A DNA stretch of 64,000 nt, from the NCBI RefSeq assembly GCF_902652985.1, contig NC_047024.1, positions 13,950,001 through 14,014,000 on the forward strand, in the 5' to 3' direction. This DNA comes from Pecten maximus (taxonomy: Eukaryota). Shown in pieces: positions 51,001-64,000 of the stretch. Position numbers: made by a program. Within the stretch, counting starts at the first letter, position 1. The number at the start of each line of letters is the position of its first letter.

Positions 51001-54000
51001 TCATCAAATACACTTTCCATATACTGCGTTACTTTGATTCCAACTCGAACAGACAGAATGAATATACCTAACCTTAAATCCCATTGTCTGCCAAATATAC
51101 GGTACAATGTATACAGGAAATGCATCTGTTGTTAGTCAAACTGCTATGACTGACACATTTTATTTTCTGGCGATCTTGATTTTGGTATAATACGTAGTCG
51201 CATGGTCTGTATTAAACGTGGATGTTTAGCCGTGAGAGATAACCACTATTTAATTATTACACCAATAGTGGCGATATCGATTGATAGGTTGCTATCTGAT
51301 GGGCTTACTATCTATGAAGCGGTCACTTACAGCGATCTCGGCGTGTTGTGGTCAGTAATTGCTAGTTCTGTCGGTCTCAATATTCCAGCCAGACTCAGCC
51401 TGCGTCTGACAGCGTTAGAAAGTCACCCTTCCCCCGATCCCTACCCCTCCTTCTCCCCTTCCTTCTGTATTCCTCAGTCTCTGTTACGGCTACCATTATC
51501 TCCACAACTGCGTAATCGGTTGTCCCCATCAGGCCGCCATTATTCATTAACCTTTATTACAGCTGAGTTGCTGTCTATTTCAGAGACCTCCTCATTTCAT
51601 GTATTTACAGACGATAACCAAACAGTAGATGATGTCATTGATTTGGACGATTCCACCGCCACAGGAAATGAGTCGCTTCTAGAGGCAGCAGACGGAAAAA
51701 TCATCTTCGAAACATACCCAACAAAGCTGGTAGAATCTTCACGTGATATTATCAGCGATGACGTCGATGGATTTATTGGTTCCGGTTCCGGTTTTGAAGA
51801 AGAACAGAGCAATGTCACGGAAGTGGAAACTTTCACGTCTCTGAAAACATCAGGTCGGTGACATTATTATTTACTTGACGTGTGCTGTAACAATTGATCA
51901 GTGTGGGTTCCATGTCGCAGAAAGGGAAGTCACTCTTTAAGTCACCATACAACTAAACGCTGCTGTATCTCCCCAAATTGGTAGAAATAATCGTGTCTAG
52001 CAGCCATTTCTCATCGTGTTCTTCATACAATTGGATAACCTAATTTCGGAGATGTTTAGCTACTTTATAAGGTTCCTTTTTTCACAGAACAACTTGAGAA
52101 ATACCAGGGCTGGGAGCTCTAGTTCATTTCTCTGACGTAATATCTCGTCTTGCATTCTTTTCCATTTCGAGCCGTTTTAACTTTTTTTTGTTTACGACTG
52201 CCTTCTTTTTCAGACATACGATCAATGAAAAACGTTTACTTAATTCGTCCTAGTATTGTCTTCATATGTCTGTCGTCACGTCTGATATGATTACGTGTTT
52301 ATTTACATGTAACAGGTCCAACGGACACTACCCCATATGTGACGTCAGCCCCTGTCACTGAGGAACGTGACGACGATGACGTGGAGGCGTCGGCCAACAC
52401 GGAGATTGTAACCATGAGAGACGATAGCGTCACCGAGGAACCAAGTACGTCATTGTTATATGTTTATATTCTAAGTGTTGATTCTTTATATGAACATACA
52501 AAGTGAAAACAACAAACATTTGACGATGAAAACACCGTGAATGCAATGTGAAAATATCGTTTCATGTTCAGATTTTCCACACAATGCATCAGTTAAATAT
52601 TAATACGCCAGAAAAATAGTCCGCGTTTCATTATCTTGAGTGGTGTTCTCTTTGCCATTTATTCTCATGAAATAAATCTAATTTACCATTTACCACGAAT
52701 CATGTTATGTGATGTCTTACAAAAAGAAAAAGAAAAAAAAACTTTTAAAATGTGGAGGGACACGGTAAACATGGCAAGGTGCATTGGCGGGATCACCGGC
52801 TGTTCCATCAATTTTGCATTGTTCATATATAGCTATCAAAAGTTATAAAAAATAAAAATAACTCTTTATTCCAAATAATCAAATCTACATCATAATGTAA
52901 ATATATGAATTGAATGGGGTTTTTTTTTTCTTTTTGAATAGAGCATAATGTATATATGTTAGTAACTTATTTAGATTAAAACCAAAGCAATATACGTACA
53001 AAGTACATTAGGTGTTACCAATATTATAAACGCAATTTAATTAACAACAATCTTTTTTAATTTCAGATGTGTTTGACGATGCTGACAAAATTCCAAGCTG
53101 TACGTATCATACTGTGTTCTTTGTCTATCATCTATCTATTAAAATTCATCACGTAATCGGCATGTTATCCCGTTTATGTCACCTATGTAATATACCCTAG
53201 AAGGTTTTCCATTGATTGTGCCAATCGTAATATGGACAATGGCGGGACGTTATGCATTGTAAATGGTGCAACAAAATGGCTGTCTCCATTTAAATAAAAT
53301 CTTACACATTTTCACTTTACTTATGTCAAAATATAAGTATTCTGAGTTACACATGTATGTGATAAAAGGTATCTTATTGCTAATCATTTCATATGAAATT
53401 TTATGAAACTCTTTTCGAAAGATTCAATTTTTAGTCGCCGAGACTCGTAAACATGAAAGCCTCTAAGATTCGTTTTATAAAAGATATCCTATTTTGATCA
53501 AACCCAGAATGATACTTGAATGGTACTTCAATACAATGGTATTCCCCTTATTATCCGTTTAAATGCTGAAGAGATGCTTGCAATAATGGCTGACGATTGC
53601 GTGCATTGGTATTTCCAAAAATGTCAATTTGACAAATAAACTATCTATTTGTAACTACCAGAGTACCAACTATGCTAATTTCACTTTCACTAACGAGATA
53701 CTTACAGTAATTACATTTGCCTTTTATTCTGTTTAGTCTTGTACACTGTGTTTTCTACTATATTGCACAGAAGTCTGGGGTCTTGAAAATTCTTGGCATG
53801 ATACGAAAAGAGTTCCTGTGACCAGTAGCCTACGGCCCCTGCATTTGCCTTTAGAACAAAAATAAGAACTCGTTTTATTTACATATGTATATATTGTTGG
53901 TATGGATATAGAGGCTTTCCGCATCAATCAATTTTCCTAATAATGAATAAATGTGTATTTCCTATTTCCGTTACAGTTCTCAAACTATGTGAGAAGAAAA

Positions 54001-63000: not shown

Positions 63001-64000
63001 GTGTGTGTTCAAACATTCAACATGACGTGTCACAGGTGATCAGTGCTTAGAAGGTGACACGAGTGCATTCGAAAAATCACACTTTACGTCAACAATTTAA
63101 ATGAACTCTGAATACTGTCATTAGACTTAACAAAAACAGAATGTGCACTTGCGTGCATGCTGATGCATGTGGGATTTCGGTGAGATGCGCAATGTGACTT
63201 AGGATGTGCAAGGACAAAAATGGTTATAAGATACGAATAACAAAACGACTTTGTCGAGTATCGAATTCATGAGCGACTGAACACAGGTACATATACTCGA
63301 TAAACTGCAATCAAATTGCATTACATTTCAAACTTCGATACAGGTGATAGAGCAGCATAGCTATCACGATCCAGTATAGATGAATCTCTACAAAAACAAC
63401 AAATCTACAAAAGTTTGAAATCCACCTCATTGGACTTTTAAGCATGGTAATAATCAGCTGTATTAGATGTTTTCGTCGAGTTAAAGGATTTTGCTGCGAA
63501 TTCTTCACTGCATGACTCGGTCAGTCTCTGTATATACTGTGTTATATAGGAAATCATATGATGACGAATACATTCGAATTCACACTGTAGAGTATCCAAT
63601 ACCATTATCTACATGTAGTTATCATGGTAGATATATATATCTACACTTTCACCATGATCGGATATTCGACAGTACAACTACTGCCATATATCGGAGATAC
63701 CACACATCACGCAGCCAACAGTATCATGTCCCGCATCTGTTCCAGTTCACTGATTGAACAGTTATCACAGAATAATCATTTGTGTTGACACAATCTTTGT
63801 CGAAAGCAATACTATTACATTTCATGGATGGGGATTAGCGGGAAGTCCTCTGTATGTAATATATATATATACATTAGTGAAGTGTTTGTTCATAAGACAA
63901 ATGAAACGTTTGTATTGTACATATGATATATAAATCTGACTAGATGTTTTGCTGGTATGGGTAGTTAAAAAGAAAATTTGTTTGCAGAGTTTGCTGGAAA

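What the first reader, a model, noticed from the sequence alone, without database searches (positions are those of the whole stretch)
51563..63050. Unusual mosaic protein: proteoglycan-like stalk + follistatin/Kazal + TSP1 + ENDOD1-like nuclease
Seen: ten exons splice in a single frame, every intron in phase 1. Established: symmetric phase-1 modules are the hallmark of exon-shuffled extracellular proteins, and vertebrate ENDOD1 proteins are essentially a nuclease-fold domain with or without TM segments. I do not recognise the fusion of FS/Kazal and TSP1 adhesion modules to this fold. Inference: a lineage-specific extracellular matrix or immune protein that might bind extracellular nucleic acid or glycosaminoglycans, or act in shell matrix given the Asp/Glu-rich stalk.
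Basis: partly seen in the sequence, partly recalled or inferred. Interest (0 to 1): 0.75.

Follow-up and report, generated by a model that had tools for sequence, protein, structure and literature searches.

The report
Scallop mosaic protein with nuclease-like tail
This is one real scallop gene for a secreted, multi-module protein whose tail is shaped like a DNA-cutting enzyme but lacks most of the cutting residues; public databases already hold it, unnamed, from molluscs of three classes.

Summary
The mosaic gene is real and is a single gene. Nine window exons (51611-63050, + strand) reproduce residues 32-726 of the RefSeq protein "uncharacterized protein LOC117335648 [Pecten maximus]" letter for letter. 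All eight split codons also match. Every intron is GT-AG and phase 1.

- Its first exon starts 48 nt too early.
- Its 21-nt exon 61122-61142 is in none of the related proteins, and is one of 28 chance candidates in that intron.
- The signal-peptide exon is not in the window.

Domain calls:
- The FS/Kazal module is solid.
- The TSP1 module is probable, but below threshold in every single test.
- The C-terminal domain has the ββα-metal nuclease fold and is nearest to fish ENDOD1-like proteins. The metal-binding Asn and the Glu are absent in 30 of 30 relatives, and the catalytic His is kept in only 13 of 30 (scallops keep it).

The architecture is not scallop-specific. It occurs in 22 named mollusc species (bivalves, gastropods, one cephalopod), always as "uncharacterized" or "hypothetical".

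Best reading: a secreted, probably glycosaminoglycan-bearing matrix protein whose nuclease-like domain binds rather than cuts. Six literature searches aimed at the gene, the family or the architecture found no description.

The parts
51611..51853 (+). Coding exon for P0192 residues 31(part)-112(part). It is the acidic stalk, with the conserved VIDLD motif and the DDVDGFIGSGSGFEEE putative glycosaminoglycan-attachment site.
   Evidence: Exact substring of P0192, residues 32-111. Acceptor ttcatgtatttacag|AC and donor CAG|gtcggt. The motif is conserved in 17 of 17 relatives that cover it.
51563..51610 (+). It is intronic.
   Evidence: P0192, P0001 and P0004 have signal-peptide sequence here instead of AELLSISETSSFHVF. 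P0192 fits only from 51611.
52316..52444 (+). Coding exon: acidic, Ser/Thr-rich stalk.
   Evidence: Exact substring of P0192, residues 113-154; split codon G matches.
53067..53099 (+). 33-nt coding exon at the end of the stalk.
   Evidence: Exact substring of P0192, residues 156-165; split codon N matches.
53977..54192 (+). Coding exon that is exactly one follistatin (FS) module: an EGF-like hairpin plus a Kazal domain, 10 Cys.
   Evidence: Pfam Kazal_2 E 2.9e-9, 37.3 bits against a cut-off of 22.8; EGF E 0.0011. PDB agrin 8s9p_A E 5.5e-31 and follistatin 2arp_F E 4.4e-6, covering residues 2-66 of 71. Model pLDDT about 84-90.
54458..56104 (.). 45-bp satellite (36.8 copies) inside the intron after the FS exon. 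Not coding.
   Evidence: Tandem Repeats Finder, 94% matches.
56434..56469 (+). 36-nt coding exon: a linker that carries the Cys lying N-terminal to the TSP1-like module.
   Evidence: Exact substring of P0192, residues 239-249. The Cys is conserved in most relatives.
56957..57196 (+). Coding exon for the TSP1-like (TSR-like) module WSSWSIW...RIRYC...CGNDRIEVRPC, plus a Cys-containing tail.
   Evidence: Pfam TSP1_spondin only E 0.35, 11.6 bits against a cut-off of 41. No PDB sequence hit. ESM Atlas: all 10 clusters shown carry TSP1-type Pfam families, top 0.94 with 174 shared features. Foldseek: the first 20 listed rows are TSR domains or proteins I know to contain TSRs, best BAI1 TSR3 E 0.65, prob 0.87, rmsd 2.4 over 49 columns.
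59334..59363 (+). 30-nt coding exon (DQLFDGKLAD linker) that joins the N-terminal and C-terminal halves.
   Evidence: Exact substring of P0192, residues 331-339, with both split codons matching. Present in P0001, P0193 and P0002.
59306..59308 (+). In-frame ATG inside the intron, 28 nt upstream of the exon. It is the counterpart of the start used by NCBI's truncated Mizuhopecten model.
   Evidence: P0002 residues 1-19 align to 59306-59362.
61122..61142 (+). Unsupported.
   Evidence: Absent from P0192, P0001, P0193, P0194 and P0002. One of 28 chance candidates in this intron.
61203..61688 (+). Coding exon for a 6-Cys basic module (about 100 aa, pI 9.6, RKKVMKNK and RKHKCWKK clusters) plus the first part of the nuclease-like domain (CQRF...FATIYDT...).
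   Evidence: Exact substring of P0192, residues 341-501. No Pfam hit. The Cys are nearly invariant in 15 relatives. Charge figures. hhalign to the fish ENDOD1-like protein starts at the CQRF motif.
62374..63050 (+). Last coding exon: the rest of the nuclease-like domain, with the His-Me finger remnant (His554, TN575-576, W588), and the stop codon.
   Evidence: Exact substring of P0192, residues 503-726. Pfam Endonuclease_NS E 0.0022, 18.1 bits against a cut-off of 23. Model pLDDT mostly above 90. Foldseek EXOG 7r6v_E E 4.3e-7.

Best explanation
The region is exons 2-10 of one gene, identical to Pecten maximus LOC117335648. It encodes a 726-residue secreted protein with no membrane anchor. In order, the protein has:
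- a signal peptide, on an exon outside the window;
- a disordered, very acidic stalk with a conserved acidic-cluster-plus-SGSG site that probably carries a glycosaminoglycan chain;
- one follistatin/Kazal module;
- one variant thrombospondin type-1 repeat;
- a basic six-cysteine module;
- a C-terminal ENDOD1-type ββα-metal (His-Me finger) nuclease fold.

The nuclease fold has lost its metal-binding Asn and its Glu in every relative, and its general-base His in most. I therefore read it as a binding or scaffolding domain, in the way the nuclease-like domain of ENPP1-3/autotaxin is, and not as an enzyme.

The whole protein is most likely a matrix or cell-surface-associated 'part-time proteoglycan' that cross-links partners through its FS, TSR, basic and nuclease-like modules.

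Shown: gene structure, single-gene status, domain folds, loss of catalytic residues, distribution across molluscs.
Inferred: secretion, GAG attachment, the non-catalytic binding role, and the identity of the ligands.
For: Gene structure:
- Nine exons equal P0192 residues 32-726 exactly, with all 8 split codons matching.
- All splice sites are GT-AG and all introns are phase 1.

Single gene:
- RefSeq single-locus proteins exist in P. maximus (726 aa) and A. irradians (734 aa).
- Uninterrupted 734-791-aa reading frames lie on 2.3-6.4-kb Logan contigs (P0001, P0194, P0003 with 189 cluster members, P0005, P0165, P0009). The same coding sequence spans 11.4 kb here, so I infer those contigs are spliced transcripts.
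- The Mizuhopecten 'two proteins' lie on different scaffolds, and the N-terminal one is labelled partial.

Secretion:
- P0192 has a hydrophobic N-terminus and no other hydrophobic segment; the five highest hydropathy windows all start at residues 5-9.

Stalk:
- pI 4.05. pLDDT is below 50 for residues 24-60 and 64-160.
- DDEDxxxGSGSG is present in 17 of 17 relatives that cover it.

FS module. TSR-like module.

Nuclease fold:
- Foldseek prob 1.00 to EXOG, EndoG, NucA and the autotaxin/ENPP3 nuclease-like domains.
- hhalign of the family against a fish protein with Pfam-validated Endonuclease_NS domains: prob 98.7, E 2.2e-16.

Catalytic decay:
- His column: H 13, P 10, Q 4, Y 2, F 1 of 30.
- The position of the fish Asn (N-x-G-x-W) is never Asn (0 of 30).
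- The position of the fish Glu is never Glu (0 of 30; one Asp).
- The best PDB sequence match of the family profile is the inactive nuclease-like domain of ENPP2, E 0.027, sharing TN..PM.P....W.

Conservation: the domain tree follows mollusc classes, as expected of single-copy orthologues under constraint.
Against: - The scallop protein itself keeps His554 at the position of the fish RGH histidine, so residual or unusual catalysis cannot be excluded.
- The assignment of the Asn and Glu roles rests on my recalled knowledge of Serratia nuclease (His89, Asn119, Glu127) and on spacing in the fish sequence, not on a solved complex.
- No direct evidence for secretion, GAG attachment or any ligand was obtainable.
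- The TSR call is below threshold in every single test: Pfam 11.6 bits against 41, Foldseek E 0.65.
- The ENPP2 sequence match is marginal (E 0.027).
- The RefSeq proteins are computational gene models.
- The signal-peptide exon is not in the window, so the 5' end is taken from P0192 and not seen here.
Confidence: 0.55

Rival explanations
1. It is an active secreted nuclease, tethered in the matrix or on cells by its FS, TSR and GAG parts. It would degrade extracellular DNA or RNA, for example in defence or clearance.
For: The fold is the ββα-metal nuclease fold. The scallop, Haliotis, Argonauta and several other orthologues keep the His aligned with the fish RGH histidine (13 of 30). A basic module (pI 9.6) sits directly upstream and could hold nucleic acid. 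NCBI names the Mizuhopecten C-terminal half 'endonuclease domain-containing 1 protein-like'.
Against: The positions of the metal-binding Asn and of the Glu are not Asn or Glu in any of 30 relatives. The Arg-Gly before the His is gone. The His itself is Pro, Gln, Tyr or Phe in 17 of 30 otherwise well-conserved orthologues. Pfam Endonuclease_NS stays below its cut-off in every member scanned: best 20.7 bits against 23, and only 6 of 15 match at all at E<=1.
Confidence: 0.15
2. There are two adjacent genes: an N-terminal Kazal/TSR proteoglycan that ends after 57196, and a separate ENDOD1-like gene that starts at the ATG at 59306. This is how Mizuhopecten yessoensis is annotated.
For: NCBI lists P0004 (426 aa, partial) and P0002 (407 aa, ENDOD1-like) as separate proteins. 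The window has the matching in-frame ATG at 59306.
Against: The two Mizuhopecten proteins sit on different scaffolds (169 kb and 738 kb), and P0004 is marked partial and carries a duplicated TSR block, which looks like an assembly artefact. The 407-aa model has no signal peptide (highest 10-residue hydropathy among windows starting in the first 35 residues is 0.5), although the domain is Cys-rich. Fused reading frames are seen in RefSeq for two other scallops, on many intronless contigs, and in three mollusc classes.
Confidence: 0.03
3. It is a shell-matrix (biomineralisation) protein. The Asp/Glu-rich stalk would bind calcium carbonate.
For: The stalk is very acidic, and Kazal and EGF-like modules are known from shell matrices (my own knowledge). 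The gene occurs in shelled molluscs.
Against: Orthologues are kept in Elysia crispata, Aplysia californica and Argonauta hians, which lack or have a much reduced true shell (my own knowledge). No paper in the library mentions any of the 12 locus or accession identifiers searched. The most conserved parts are the TSR-like, basic and nuclease-like modules, not the stalk.
Confidence: 0.1
4. Its main job is serine-protease inhibition through the Kazal domain.
For: Pfam Kazal_2 is above its cut-off.
Against: The module is of the follistatin/agrin (FS) type. I recall FS modules as mostly non-inhibitory. It is missing from 9 of 15 aligned family members, while the rest of the protein is kept.
Confidence: 0.05

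Closest known systems
ENDOD1 and ENDOD1-like proteins (Endonuclease_NS, PF01223; vertebrate ENDOD1 and the teleost multi-copy forms)
   Same: The C-terminal domain has the same fold. The nearest non-molluscan sequence relatives found are two fish proteins with strong PF01223 domains. hhalign gives prob 98.7, E 2.2e-16, and the alignment includes the ENDOD1-style start CQ+aromatic...FATLYD...P..S and the TLTN..P...W core. Both have an N-terminal signal peptide.
   Different: Human ENDOD1 is described as signal peptide + one endonuclease domain + three C-terminal transmembrane motifs (PMC9126970, passage read). This protein has no transmembrane segment. It carries about 440 residues of stalk, FS, TSR-like and basic modules in front. 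It lacks the RG of RGH and the Asn and Glu that the fish sequences keep. Pfam scores stay under the family cut-off.
Nuclease-like (NUC) domain of ENPP1-3 / autotaxin (His-Me finger group 21 of PMC5714182)
   Same: Both are extracellular His-Me-finger folds with decayed active sites, sitting behind Cys-rich modules. This is the best PDB sequence match of the family profile (E 0.027, motif TN..PM.P....W), and autotaxin and ENPP3 appear among the structural matches (E 2.4e-6 to 6e-6). It offers a precedent for a purely structural or binding role.
   Different: There is no phosphodiesterase domain and no somatomedin-B domains. The match to the SMB region scored -10 bits, which is not a match. Scallops still have the His, whereas ENPPs have neither His nor Tyr. 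By sequence the family is much closer to ENDOD1-like proteins.
FS-module proteoglycans and matricellular proteins (agrin, testican/SPOCK, SPARC/SMOC, follistatin-like)
   Same: It has a 10-Cys FS module closest to agrin FS repeats. It has an acidic region with Ser-Gly repeats of the kind used for GAG attachment (consensus recalled). The modules are extracellular and each lies on a phase-1-bounded exon.
   Different: None of these has a nuclease-fold domain (my own knowledge; no such architecture turned up). There is only one FS module, and it is dispensable in many lineages.
Thrombospondin type-1 repeat (TSR) proteins, spondin-type subgroup
   Same: It has the WxxWSxW tryptophan ladder, the RxRxC strand, then CxG...ExRxC, with six Cys in all. 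The predicted structure has strands whose best structural matches are TSRs.
   Different: It lacks the CSxTCG cysteines of the classical repeat and has a Cys upstream of the Trp motif instead. It is not recognised by Pfam at its thresholds.

Membership tests
Endonuclease_NS / ENDOD1 (PF01223) | ββα-metal (His-Me finger) non-specific nuclease fold | tested here: met
   The AF2 model of P0192 has pLDDT mostly above 90 for residues 420-726. Foldseek: EXOG 7r6v_E E 4.3e-7, prob 1.00, 230 columns; EndoG 6m3f_B TM(target) 0.60; NucA 2o3b_A 0.58.
Endonuclease_NS / ENDOD1 (PF01223) | Pfam model score at or above the gathering cut-off (23 bits) | tested here: not met
   Window exon 10 scores 18.1 bits; P0001 15.3 and P0002 15.5; P0192 has no hit at E<=0.01. 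The family best is 20.7 bits (P0200). Six of 15 members match at E<=1.
Endonuclease_NS / ENDOD1 (PF01223) | General-base His of the (D)RGH motif (role recalled from the Serratia nuclease and EndoG literature) | tested here: inconclusive
   His554 is present in the window's protein and aligns with the fish RGH His. The preceding Arg-Gly is absent. Across relatives the column reads H 13, P 10, Q 4, Y 2, F 1 of 30.
Endonuclease_NS / ENDOD1 (PF01223) | Metal-binding Asn and the Glu eight residues later (N-x-G-x-W-x-x-x-E; roles recalled) | tested here: not met
   At the aligned positions there is no Asn (0 of 30) and no Glu (0 of 30; one Asp). The window's protein has Leu or Tyr, and Val.
Endonuclease_NS / ENDOD1 (PF01223) | ENDOD1-type sequence kinship (nearest relatives are ENDOD1-like proteins) | tested here: met
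   Among the 32 representatives looked up by name, the only non-molluscan ones are two fish proteins with 2-6 PF01223 stretches. hhalign prob 98.7, E 2.2e-16 over 221 columns.
Vertebrate ENDOD1 architecture | Signal peptide + single nuclease domain + C-terminal transmembrane motifs (PMC9126970) | tested here: not met
   There is no hydrophobic segment beyond the signal peptide, and about 440 residues of other modules precede the domain.
ENPP-type nuclease-like domain | Joined to a phosphodiesterase domain and two SMB domains; catalytic His absent | tested here: not met
   No PDE or SMB family appears in Pfam scans of 15+6 members. The His is retained in 13 of 30. Only the degenerate core motif is shared.
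Follistatin (FS) / Kazal module | Ten Cys (EGF-like hairpin + Kazal), Pfam Kazal_2 above cut-off, homology to agrin and follistatin FS repeats | tested here: met
   Kazal_2 scores 37.3 bits against 22.8. There are 10 Cys in 72 residues. Agrin E 5.5e-31 summed, best single repeat 3.6e-7 over residues 4-66; follistatin E 4.4e-6.
Kazal serine-protease inhibitors | Canonical reactive-site loop with inhibitory activity | not tested
   No reactive-site analysis or assay was done. The module is absent from 9 of 15 family members.
Thrombospondin type-1 repeat (TSP_1 / TSP1_spondin) | Pfam model above cut-off | tested here: not met
   TSP1_spondin E 0.35, 11.6 bits against 41, for the isolated exon. 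No TSP1 family is among the 14 families matched at E<=1 by the 15 full-length members.
Thrombospondin type-1 repeat (TSP_1 / TSP1_spondin) | WxxWxxW / RxRxC ladder motifs and six Cys (features recalled) | tested here: met
   WSSWSIW...RIRYC in the window. The regex W..W[ST].W...R.R.C hits 16 of 26 proteins checked; five of the 10 misses (P0002, P0007, P0020, P0191, P0208) have no N-terminal half. The Cys columns are nearly invariant. The classical CSxTCG is absent.
Thrombospondin type-1 repeat (TSP_1 / TSP1_spondin) | Elongated TSR fold (three antiparallel strands; feature recalled) | tested here: inconclusive
   The model of the exon has mean pLDDT 70. In Foldseek no hit reaches E<=0.001, but the first 20 listed rows are TSR domains or proteins I know to contain TSRs; best BAI1 TSR3 E 0.65, prob 0.87, rmsd 2.4 A. 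ESM Atlas: all 10 clusters shown carry TSP1-type Pfam families.
Proteoglycan core protein | Ser-Gly attachment site next to acidic residues, carrying a GAG chain | not testable with these tools
   The motif DDVDGFIGSGSGFEEE is present and conserved, 17 of 17. Actual xylosylation and a GAG chain can only be shown biochemically.

The most novel reading that the evidence does not exclude
An ancient, Mollusca-wide extracellular pseudo-nuclease. The ancestor of bivalves, gastropods and cephalopods would have fused an ENDOD1-type nuclease fold to FS, TSR and GAG-bearing matrix modules and then disabled its active site. The result would be a matrix-anchored receptor for extracellular polyanions: DNA or RNA released by damaged cells, microbes or haemocyte traps, or sulfated glycans. 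The protein's own acidic GAG stalk could mask its basic and nuclease-like binding face until a ligand displaces it. This would be a second, independent case, besides ENPP1-3, of an extracellular His-Me finger converted into a binding domain. In lineages that keep the His it might retain a non-canonical activity.
Probability: 0.15. Interest if true: 0.6.

Novelty: new variant of a known kind. Interest (0 to 1): 0.4.

Why it matters
Every module is of a known kind, and the protein sequence is already public. What is not described in anything I could search is the family itself: a single-copy, Mollusca-wide secreted protein that joins a proteoglycan-type stalk and FS and TSR adhesion modules to an ENDOD1-type nuclease fold whose catalytic set has decayed.

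If the non-catalytic reading holds, it adds a second extracellular 'dead nuclease' lineage beside the ENPP nuclease-like domain. It would also give a handle on what the poorly understood ENDOD1 fold binds.

There are practical points too:
- The Mizuhopecten annotation splits one gene into a 'partial uncharacterized' protein and an 'ENDOD1-like' protein.
- Pfam misses two of the four globular modules.
- The nine all-phase-1 introns, with the FS module on its own exon, make a clean example of modular, exon-shuffling-type gene structure.

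Tried and rejected
1. Signal-peptide exon. tblastn of the first 33-36 residues of P0001, P0003, P0004 and P0192 against the whole window, both strands, at permissive settings, gave only chance-level hits (best 20-21 bits). A scan for ATG + hydrophobic stretch + phase-1 donor over 30000-51600 gave nothing resembling it. I rejected it because P0192 fits only from 51611 and has a different, conserved signal peptide.

2. PDB sequence searches with single exons. Exon 10 gave only chance hits (E about 1). 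The TSR-like exon gave none at E<=10.

3. ESM Atlas on the first 100 residues of exon 9 (the basic 6-Cys module): no usable hit. That module stays unassigned. The apparent alignment to the autotaxin SMB region scored -10 bits and is not a match.

4. The third word-indexed homologue search (P0192, residues 330-726) returned only the three proteins already known. The distribution therefore rests on the exhaustive representative search plus name look-ups.

5. Literature:
- 'ENDOD1'+'mollusc': 0 papers.
- The phrase 'endonuclease domain-containing 1' together with bivalve terms: no listed paper holds the phrase.
- Twelve locus or accession identifiers: 0 papers.
- Combinations of domain terms: nothing relevant among the 15 papers listed of 93.
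Absence from shell or tissue proteomes is therefore not shown.

6. Rfam and tRNA scans of the whole window: nothing.

7. No open reading frame in the upstream 51 kb looked like a gene by eye: it holds satellites and a reverse-transcriptase-like fragment, and none of these ORFs was scanned against any family library.

Synteny and intron positions in other molluscs therefore stayed unchecked.

Full report
METHOD. Window sequence was searched exon by exon. Whole-protein analyses used proteins that the databases returned. One of these, P0192, proved identical to the window's exons. The window contains no N.

WHAT IS THERE. Hand indexing and a script gave nine + strand exons, all with AG/GT borders: 51611-51853, 52316-52444, 53067-53099, 53977-54192, 56434-56469, 56957-57196, 59334-59363, 61203-61688 and 62374-63050. 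All internal exon lengths are divisible by three.

A search with the last exon alone found three proteins:
- a 734-aa protein from a 5.1-kb Logan contig (P0001, 92% identical);
- the NCBI protein 'endonuclease domain-containing 1 protein-like [Mizuhopecten yessoensis]' (P0002, 407 aa, 91%);
- a 747-aa protein with 189 cluster members (P0003, 49%).

The cluster of P0001 also holds RefSeq 'uncharacterized protein LOC117335648 [Pecten maximus]' (P0192, 726 aa) and an Argopecten irradians protein (P0193, 734 aa).

Translated one exon at a time, each of the nine exons is an exact, unique substring of P0192. The substrings are contiguous, and each of the eight split codons gives the residue P0192 has at that place. 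Together they account for residues 32-726. The window is therefore Pecten maximus, or indistinguishable from it over these 695 residues. The gene is real, and all eight in-window introns are phase 1, as is the intron ending at 51610. If roughly a third of introns are phase 1 (my assumption), nine in a row has a chance near 5e-5. The bias is the well-known one of extracellular modular genes.

1. P0192, P0001 and P0004 carry signal-peptide sequence instead of that translation, and the fit starts at 51611.
2. The 21-nt exon 61122-61142 is in none of P0192, P0001, P0193, P0194 or P0002. The 1.8-kb intron holds 28 frame-preserving AG..GT mini-exon candidates by chance.
3. The exon for residues 1-30 (MDTHTRLVWCMLVCVFLTSVLA..., a signal peptide) is not detectable anywhere in the 64 kb. 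It must lie more than 51 kb upstream or be missing from this assembly stretch. The upstream 51 kb holds satellites and a reverse-transcriptase-like fragment, and no open reading frame there looked like a gene by eye; none was scanned.

ONE GENE OR TWO. NCBI's Mizuhopecten annotation does show two proteins:
- P0004, 426 aa, has the stalk, FS and TSR-like parts. It is labelled partial, lies on a 169-kb scaffold, and carries a duplicated TSR block.
- P0002, 407 aa, lies on a 738-kb scaffold. It starts at an ATG whose counterpart in the window (59306) lies in the intron just upstream of the 59334 exon.

That split is best explained by a broken assembly. Against it stand three things:
- single-locus RefSeq models in two other scallops;
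- uninterrupted 661-791-aa frames on 2.3-6.4-kb contigs in four protein clusters (P0001/P0194, P0003, P0005/P0165/P0167 and P0009/P0175/P0176), which I infer to be spliced transcripts because the same coding sequence spans 11.4 kb here;
- the same collinear architecture in distant molluscs.

DISTRIBUTION. A profile of three family members, read against 1.84 billion representative proteins, gave 2028 hits at E<=0.001. Most of them match only the Kazal region. Those matching the C-terminal half were looked up by name. Together, the named sources are 22 mollusc species:
- Bivalves: Pecten, Argopecten, Mizuhopecten, Pinctada, Dreissena, Mya, Sinanodonta, Solemya.
- Gastropods: four Haliotis species, Gigantopelta, Lottia, Littorina, Batillaria, Babylonia, Pomacea, Physella, Elysia, Aplysia.
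- Cephalopod: Argonauta.

Nearly all carry only generic names ('uncharacterized' or 'hypothetical', with automatic UniRef domain labels for Lottia and Pomacea); the exception is the Mizuhopecten C-terminal half, named ENDOD1-like. The only named non-molluscan hits were two fish proteins made of repeated, Pfam-validated Endonuclease_NS domains. Eleven short C-terminal-matching representatives were not looked up, and others looked up carry no name. Presence outside molluscs is therefore not excluded.

A maximum-likelihood tree of the C-terminal domain (24 rows) groups gastropods together (92/89), and within them heterobranchs (100/100) and caenogastropods (99/97). It also groups the heteroconch bivalves (100/99), as expected for vertically inherited single-copy orthologues. 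One relative, P0209 (1288 aa), adds seven Sushi repeats in front.

THE MODULES.

Stalk (residues 23-166):
- pI 4.05, 39 D+E and 33 S+T in 144 residues, no Cys. pLDDT is below 50.
- Two islands are conserved: [VF]IDLD, and an acidic cluster followed by GSGSG. The latter is present in 17 of 17 relatives that cover the region.
- I recall acidic residues next to Ser-Gly as the xylosyltransferase consensus, so a GAG chain is plausible but unproven.

FS module (one exon):
- Pfam Kazal_2 scores 37.3 bits against a cut-off of 22.8, with a sub-threshold EGF match.
- There are ten Cys.
- Alignment over almost its whole length to agrin FS repeats and follistatin.
- It is present in 6 of 15 aligned members, and also in Gigantopelta and P0209. 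Those with it include bivalves, gastropods and the cephalopod. I infer it is ancestral and was lost repeatedly.

TSR-like module:
- The sequence shows WxxWSxW, RxRxC and CxG...ExRxC with six Cys.
- Pfam gives only E 0.35, and the PDB gives no sequence hit.
- The language-model search listed 10 named clusters (the best three of 30 hits and the best of each further family set). All 10 carry TSP1-type families, with a top score of 0.94 and 174 shared features.
- A 79-residue model (mean pLDDT 70) found no match at E<=0.001. However, its first 20 listed rows are TSR domains or proteins that I know contain TSRs: BAI1, thrombospondin-1, semaphorin-5A, properdin, F-spondin, UNC5A and chains of complement C5b-6/C5b-9 complexes.
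- I call it a probable variant TSR.

Basic six-Cys module (residues 341-440):
- pI 9.6, with two Lys/Arg clusters. The Cys are nearly invariant. The model is confident, with pLDDT about 77-86 for residues 341-400.
- It matched no family.

Nuclease-like domain (residues 441-726):
- pLDDT is mostly above 90.
- Foldseek gives prob 1.00 to EXOG, EndoG, NucA, and the nuclease-like domains of autotaxin and ENPP3.

IS IT AN ENZYME? Profile-profile alignment to a fish ENDOD1-like domain (prob 98.7, E 2.2e-16) puts the scallop His554 on the fish RGH histidine. It puts the family's TN..P...W on the fish TLTN..PQ....N.G.W...E. In the fish sequence, the His-to-Asn distance of 30 and the Asn-to-Glu distance of 8 equal those I recall for Serratia nuclease (His89, Asn119, Glu127). 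I therefore take these as the catalytic trio.

In 30 relatives:
- The His column reads H 13, P 10, Q 4, Y 2, F 1.
- The Asn position is never Asn; it is Leu, Val or Ile, or Tyr or Phe if the one-residue gap is placed as hhalign does.
- The Glu position is never Glu; it is hydrophobic in 28, with one Ser and one Asp.

Pfam's Endonuclease_NS model stays below its cut-off everywhere. The family profile's best PDB sequence match, though marginal (E 0.027), is the nuclease-like domain of ENPP2. A classification of His-Me fingers describes that domain as having lost the catalytic histidine, being presumed inactive, and serving stability and substrate binding (PMC5714182, passages read).

The rest of the domain is well conserved: invariant or near-invariant Cys, Trp and TN. 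That conservation points to a maintained non-catalytic function. Because scallops keep the His, I leave 0.15 for residual or unusual nuclease activity.

COMPARISON WITH KNOWN PROTEINS. Human ENDOD1 is described as signal peptide + one endonuclease domain (residues 49-257) + three C-terminal transmembrane motifs, and as an 'atypical nuclease' acting with cGAS-STING (PMC9126970, abstract and passages). The scallop protein shares the fold and sequence kinship. It has no transmembrane segment, has about 440 residues of matrix modules in front, and has a more decayed active site. It works most like the ENPP nuclease-like domain but is not a member of that family, since it has no PDE or SMB domains. 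Its front half resembles FS-containing proteoglycans such as agrin and testican.

LITERATURE. Six searches aimed at the gene, the family or the architecture found no description of this family or architecture. A seventh was used only to find the ENPP reference. Supplementary tables were closed, so proteome lists remain unchecked.

VERDICT. The thing is a known-but-uncharacterised, Mollusca-wide family, not a scallop novelty. Its most interesting feature is a conserved extracellular nuclease fold without a nuclease active site.

Noticed in passing
window 45347-48494: A 39-bp satellite with 81.6 copies at 91% match, purine-rich on the + strand. It causes the GC and AT skew peak at 46-48 kb. Its long 'ORFs' on both strands are repeat artefacts.
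   Followed up: partly
window 54458-56104: A 45-bp satellite (36.8 copies, 94% match) that fills most of the intron between the FS exon and the next exon.
   Followed up: partly
window 41949-42289; 58957-59066; 60487-60562: Shorter tandem repeats: 35 bp x 9.7, 34 bp x 3.2, and 38 bp x 2. The last two lie in the introns that flank the 30-nt exon.
   Followed up: no
window 2-814; 14779-15929; 25406-25663: More repeat arrays seen through their periodic ORF translations: an array at the window start, one with a period of about 300 bp, and an AT-rich microsatellite-like tract.
   Followed up: no
window 44769-45318 (- strand): Two adjacent ORF fragments whose translations look like a LINE-type reverse-transcriptase remnant, just upstream of the 39-bp satellite. 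Judged by eye only.
   Followed up: no
window 60300-60450: A GC-richer stretch in the intron that looks like a tRNA-derived SINE by eye. ARAGORN and Rfam report nothing there.
   Followed up: partly
P0004 (Mizuhopecten yessoensis, partial): The block SPYETFCEENTAPSWSS...DVQAI occurs twice in tandem at the end of this partial protein. This is probably an assembly or annotation duplication at a scaffold end.
   Followed up: no
P0192 residues 40-44 (window about 51635-51649) and relatives: A short motif [VF]IDLD near the N-terminus of the otherwise variable stalk is conserved in about 13 of the 15 aligned members (counted by eye). No function is known.
   Followed up: no
P0209 (1288 aa, named SVEP1-like; organism cut off in the output): A family member with seven Sushi repeats in front of the Kazal and nuclease-like parts. 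It groups with the cephalopod sequence in the tree. It is either a further architecture or a merged gene model.
   Followed up: partly
P0192 residue 580 and relatives (window exon 62374-63050): A His directly after the TN..P motif (P[IML]H) is present in 21 of the 30 relatives, more conserved than the canonical catalytic His. Its role is unknown.
   Followed up: no
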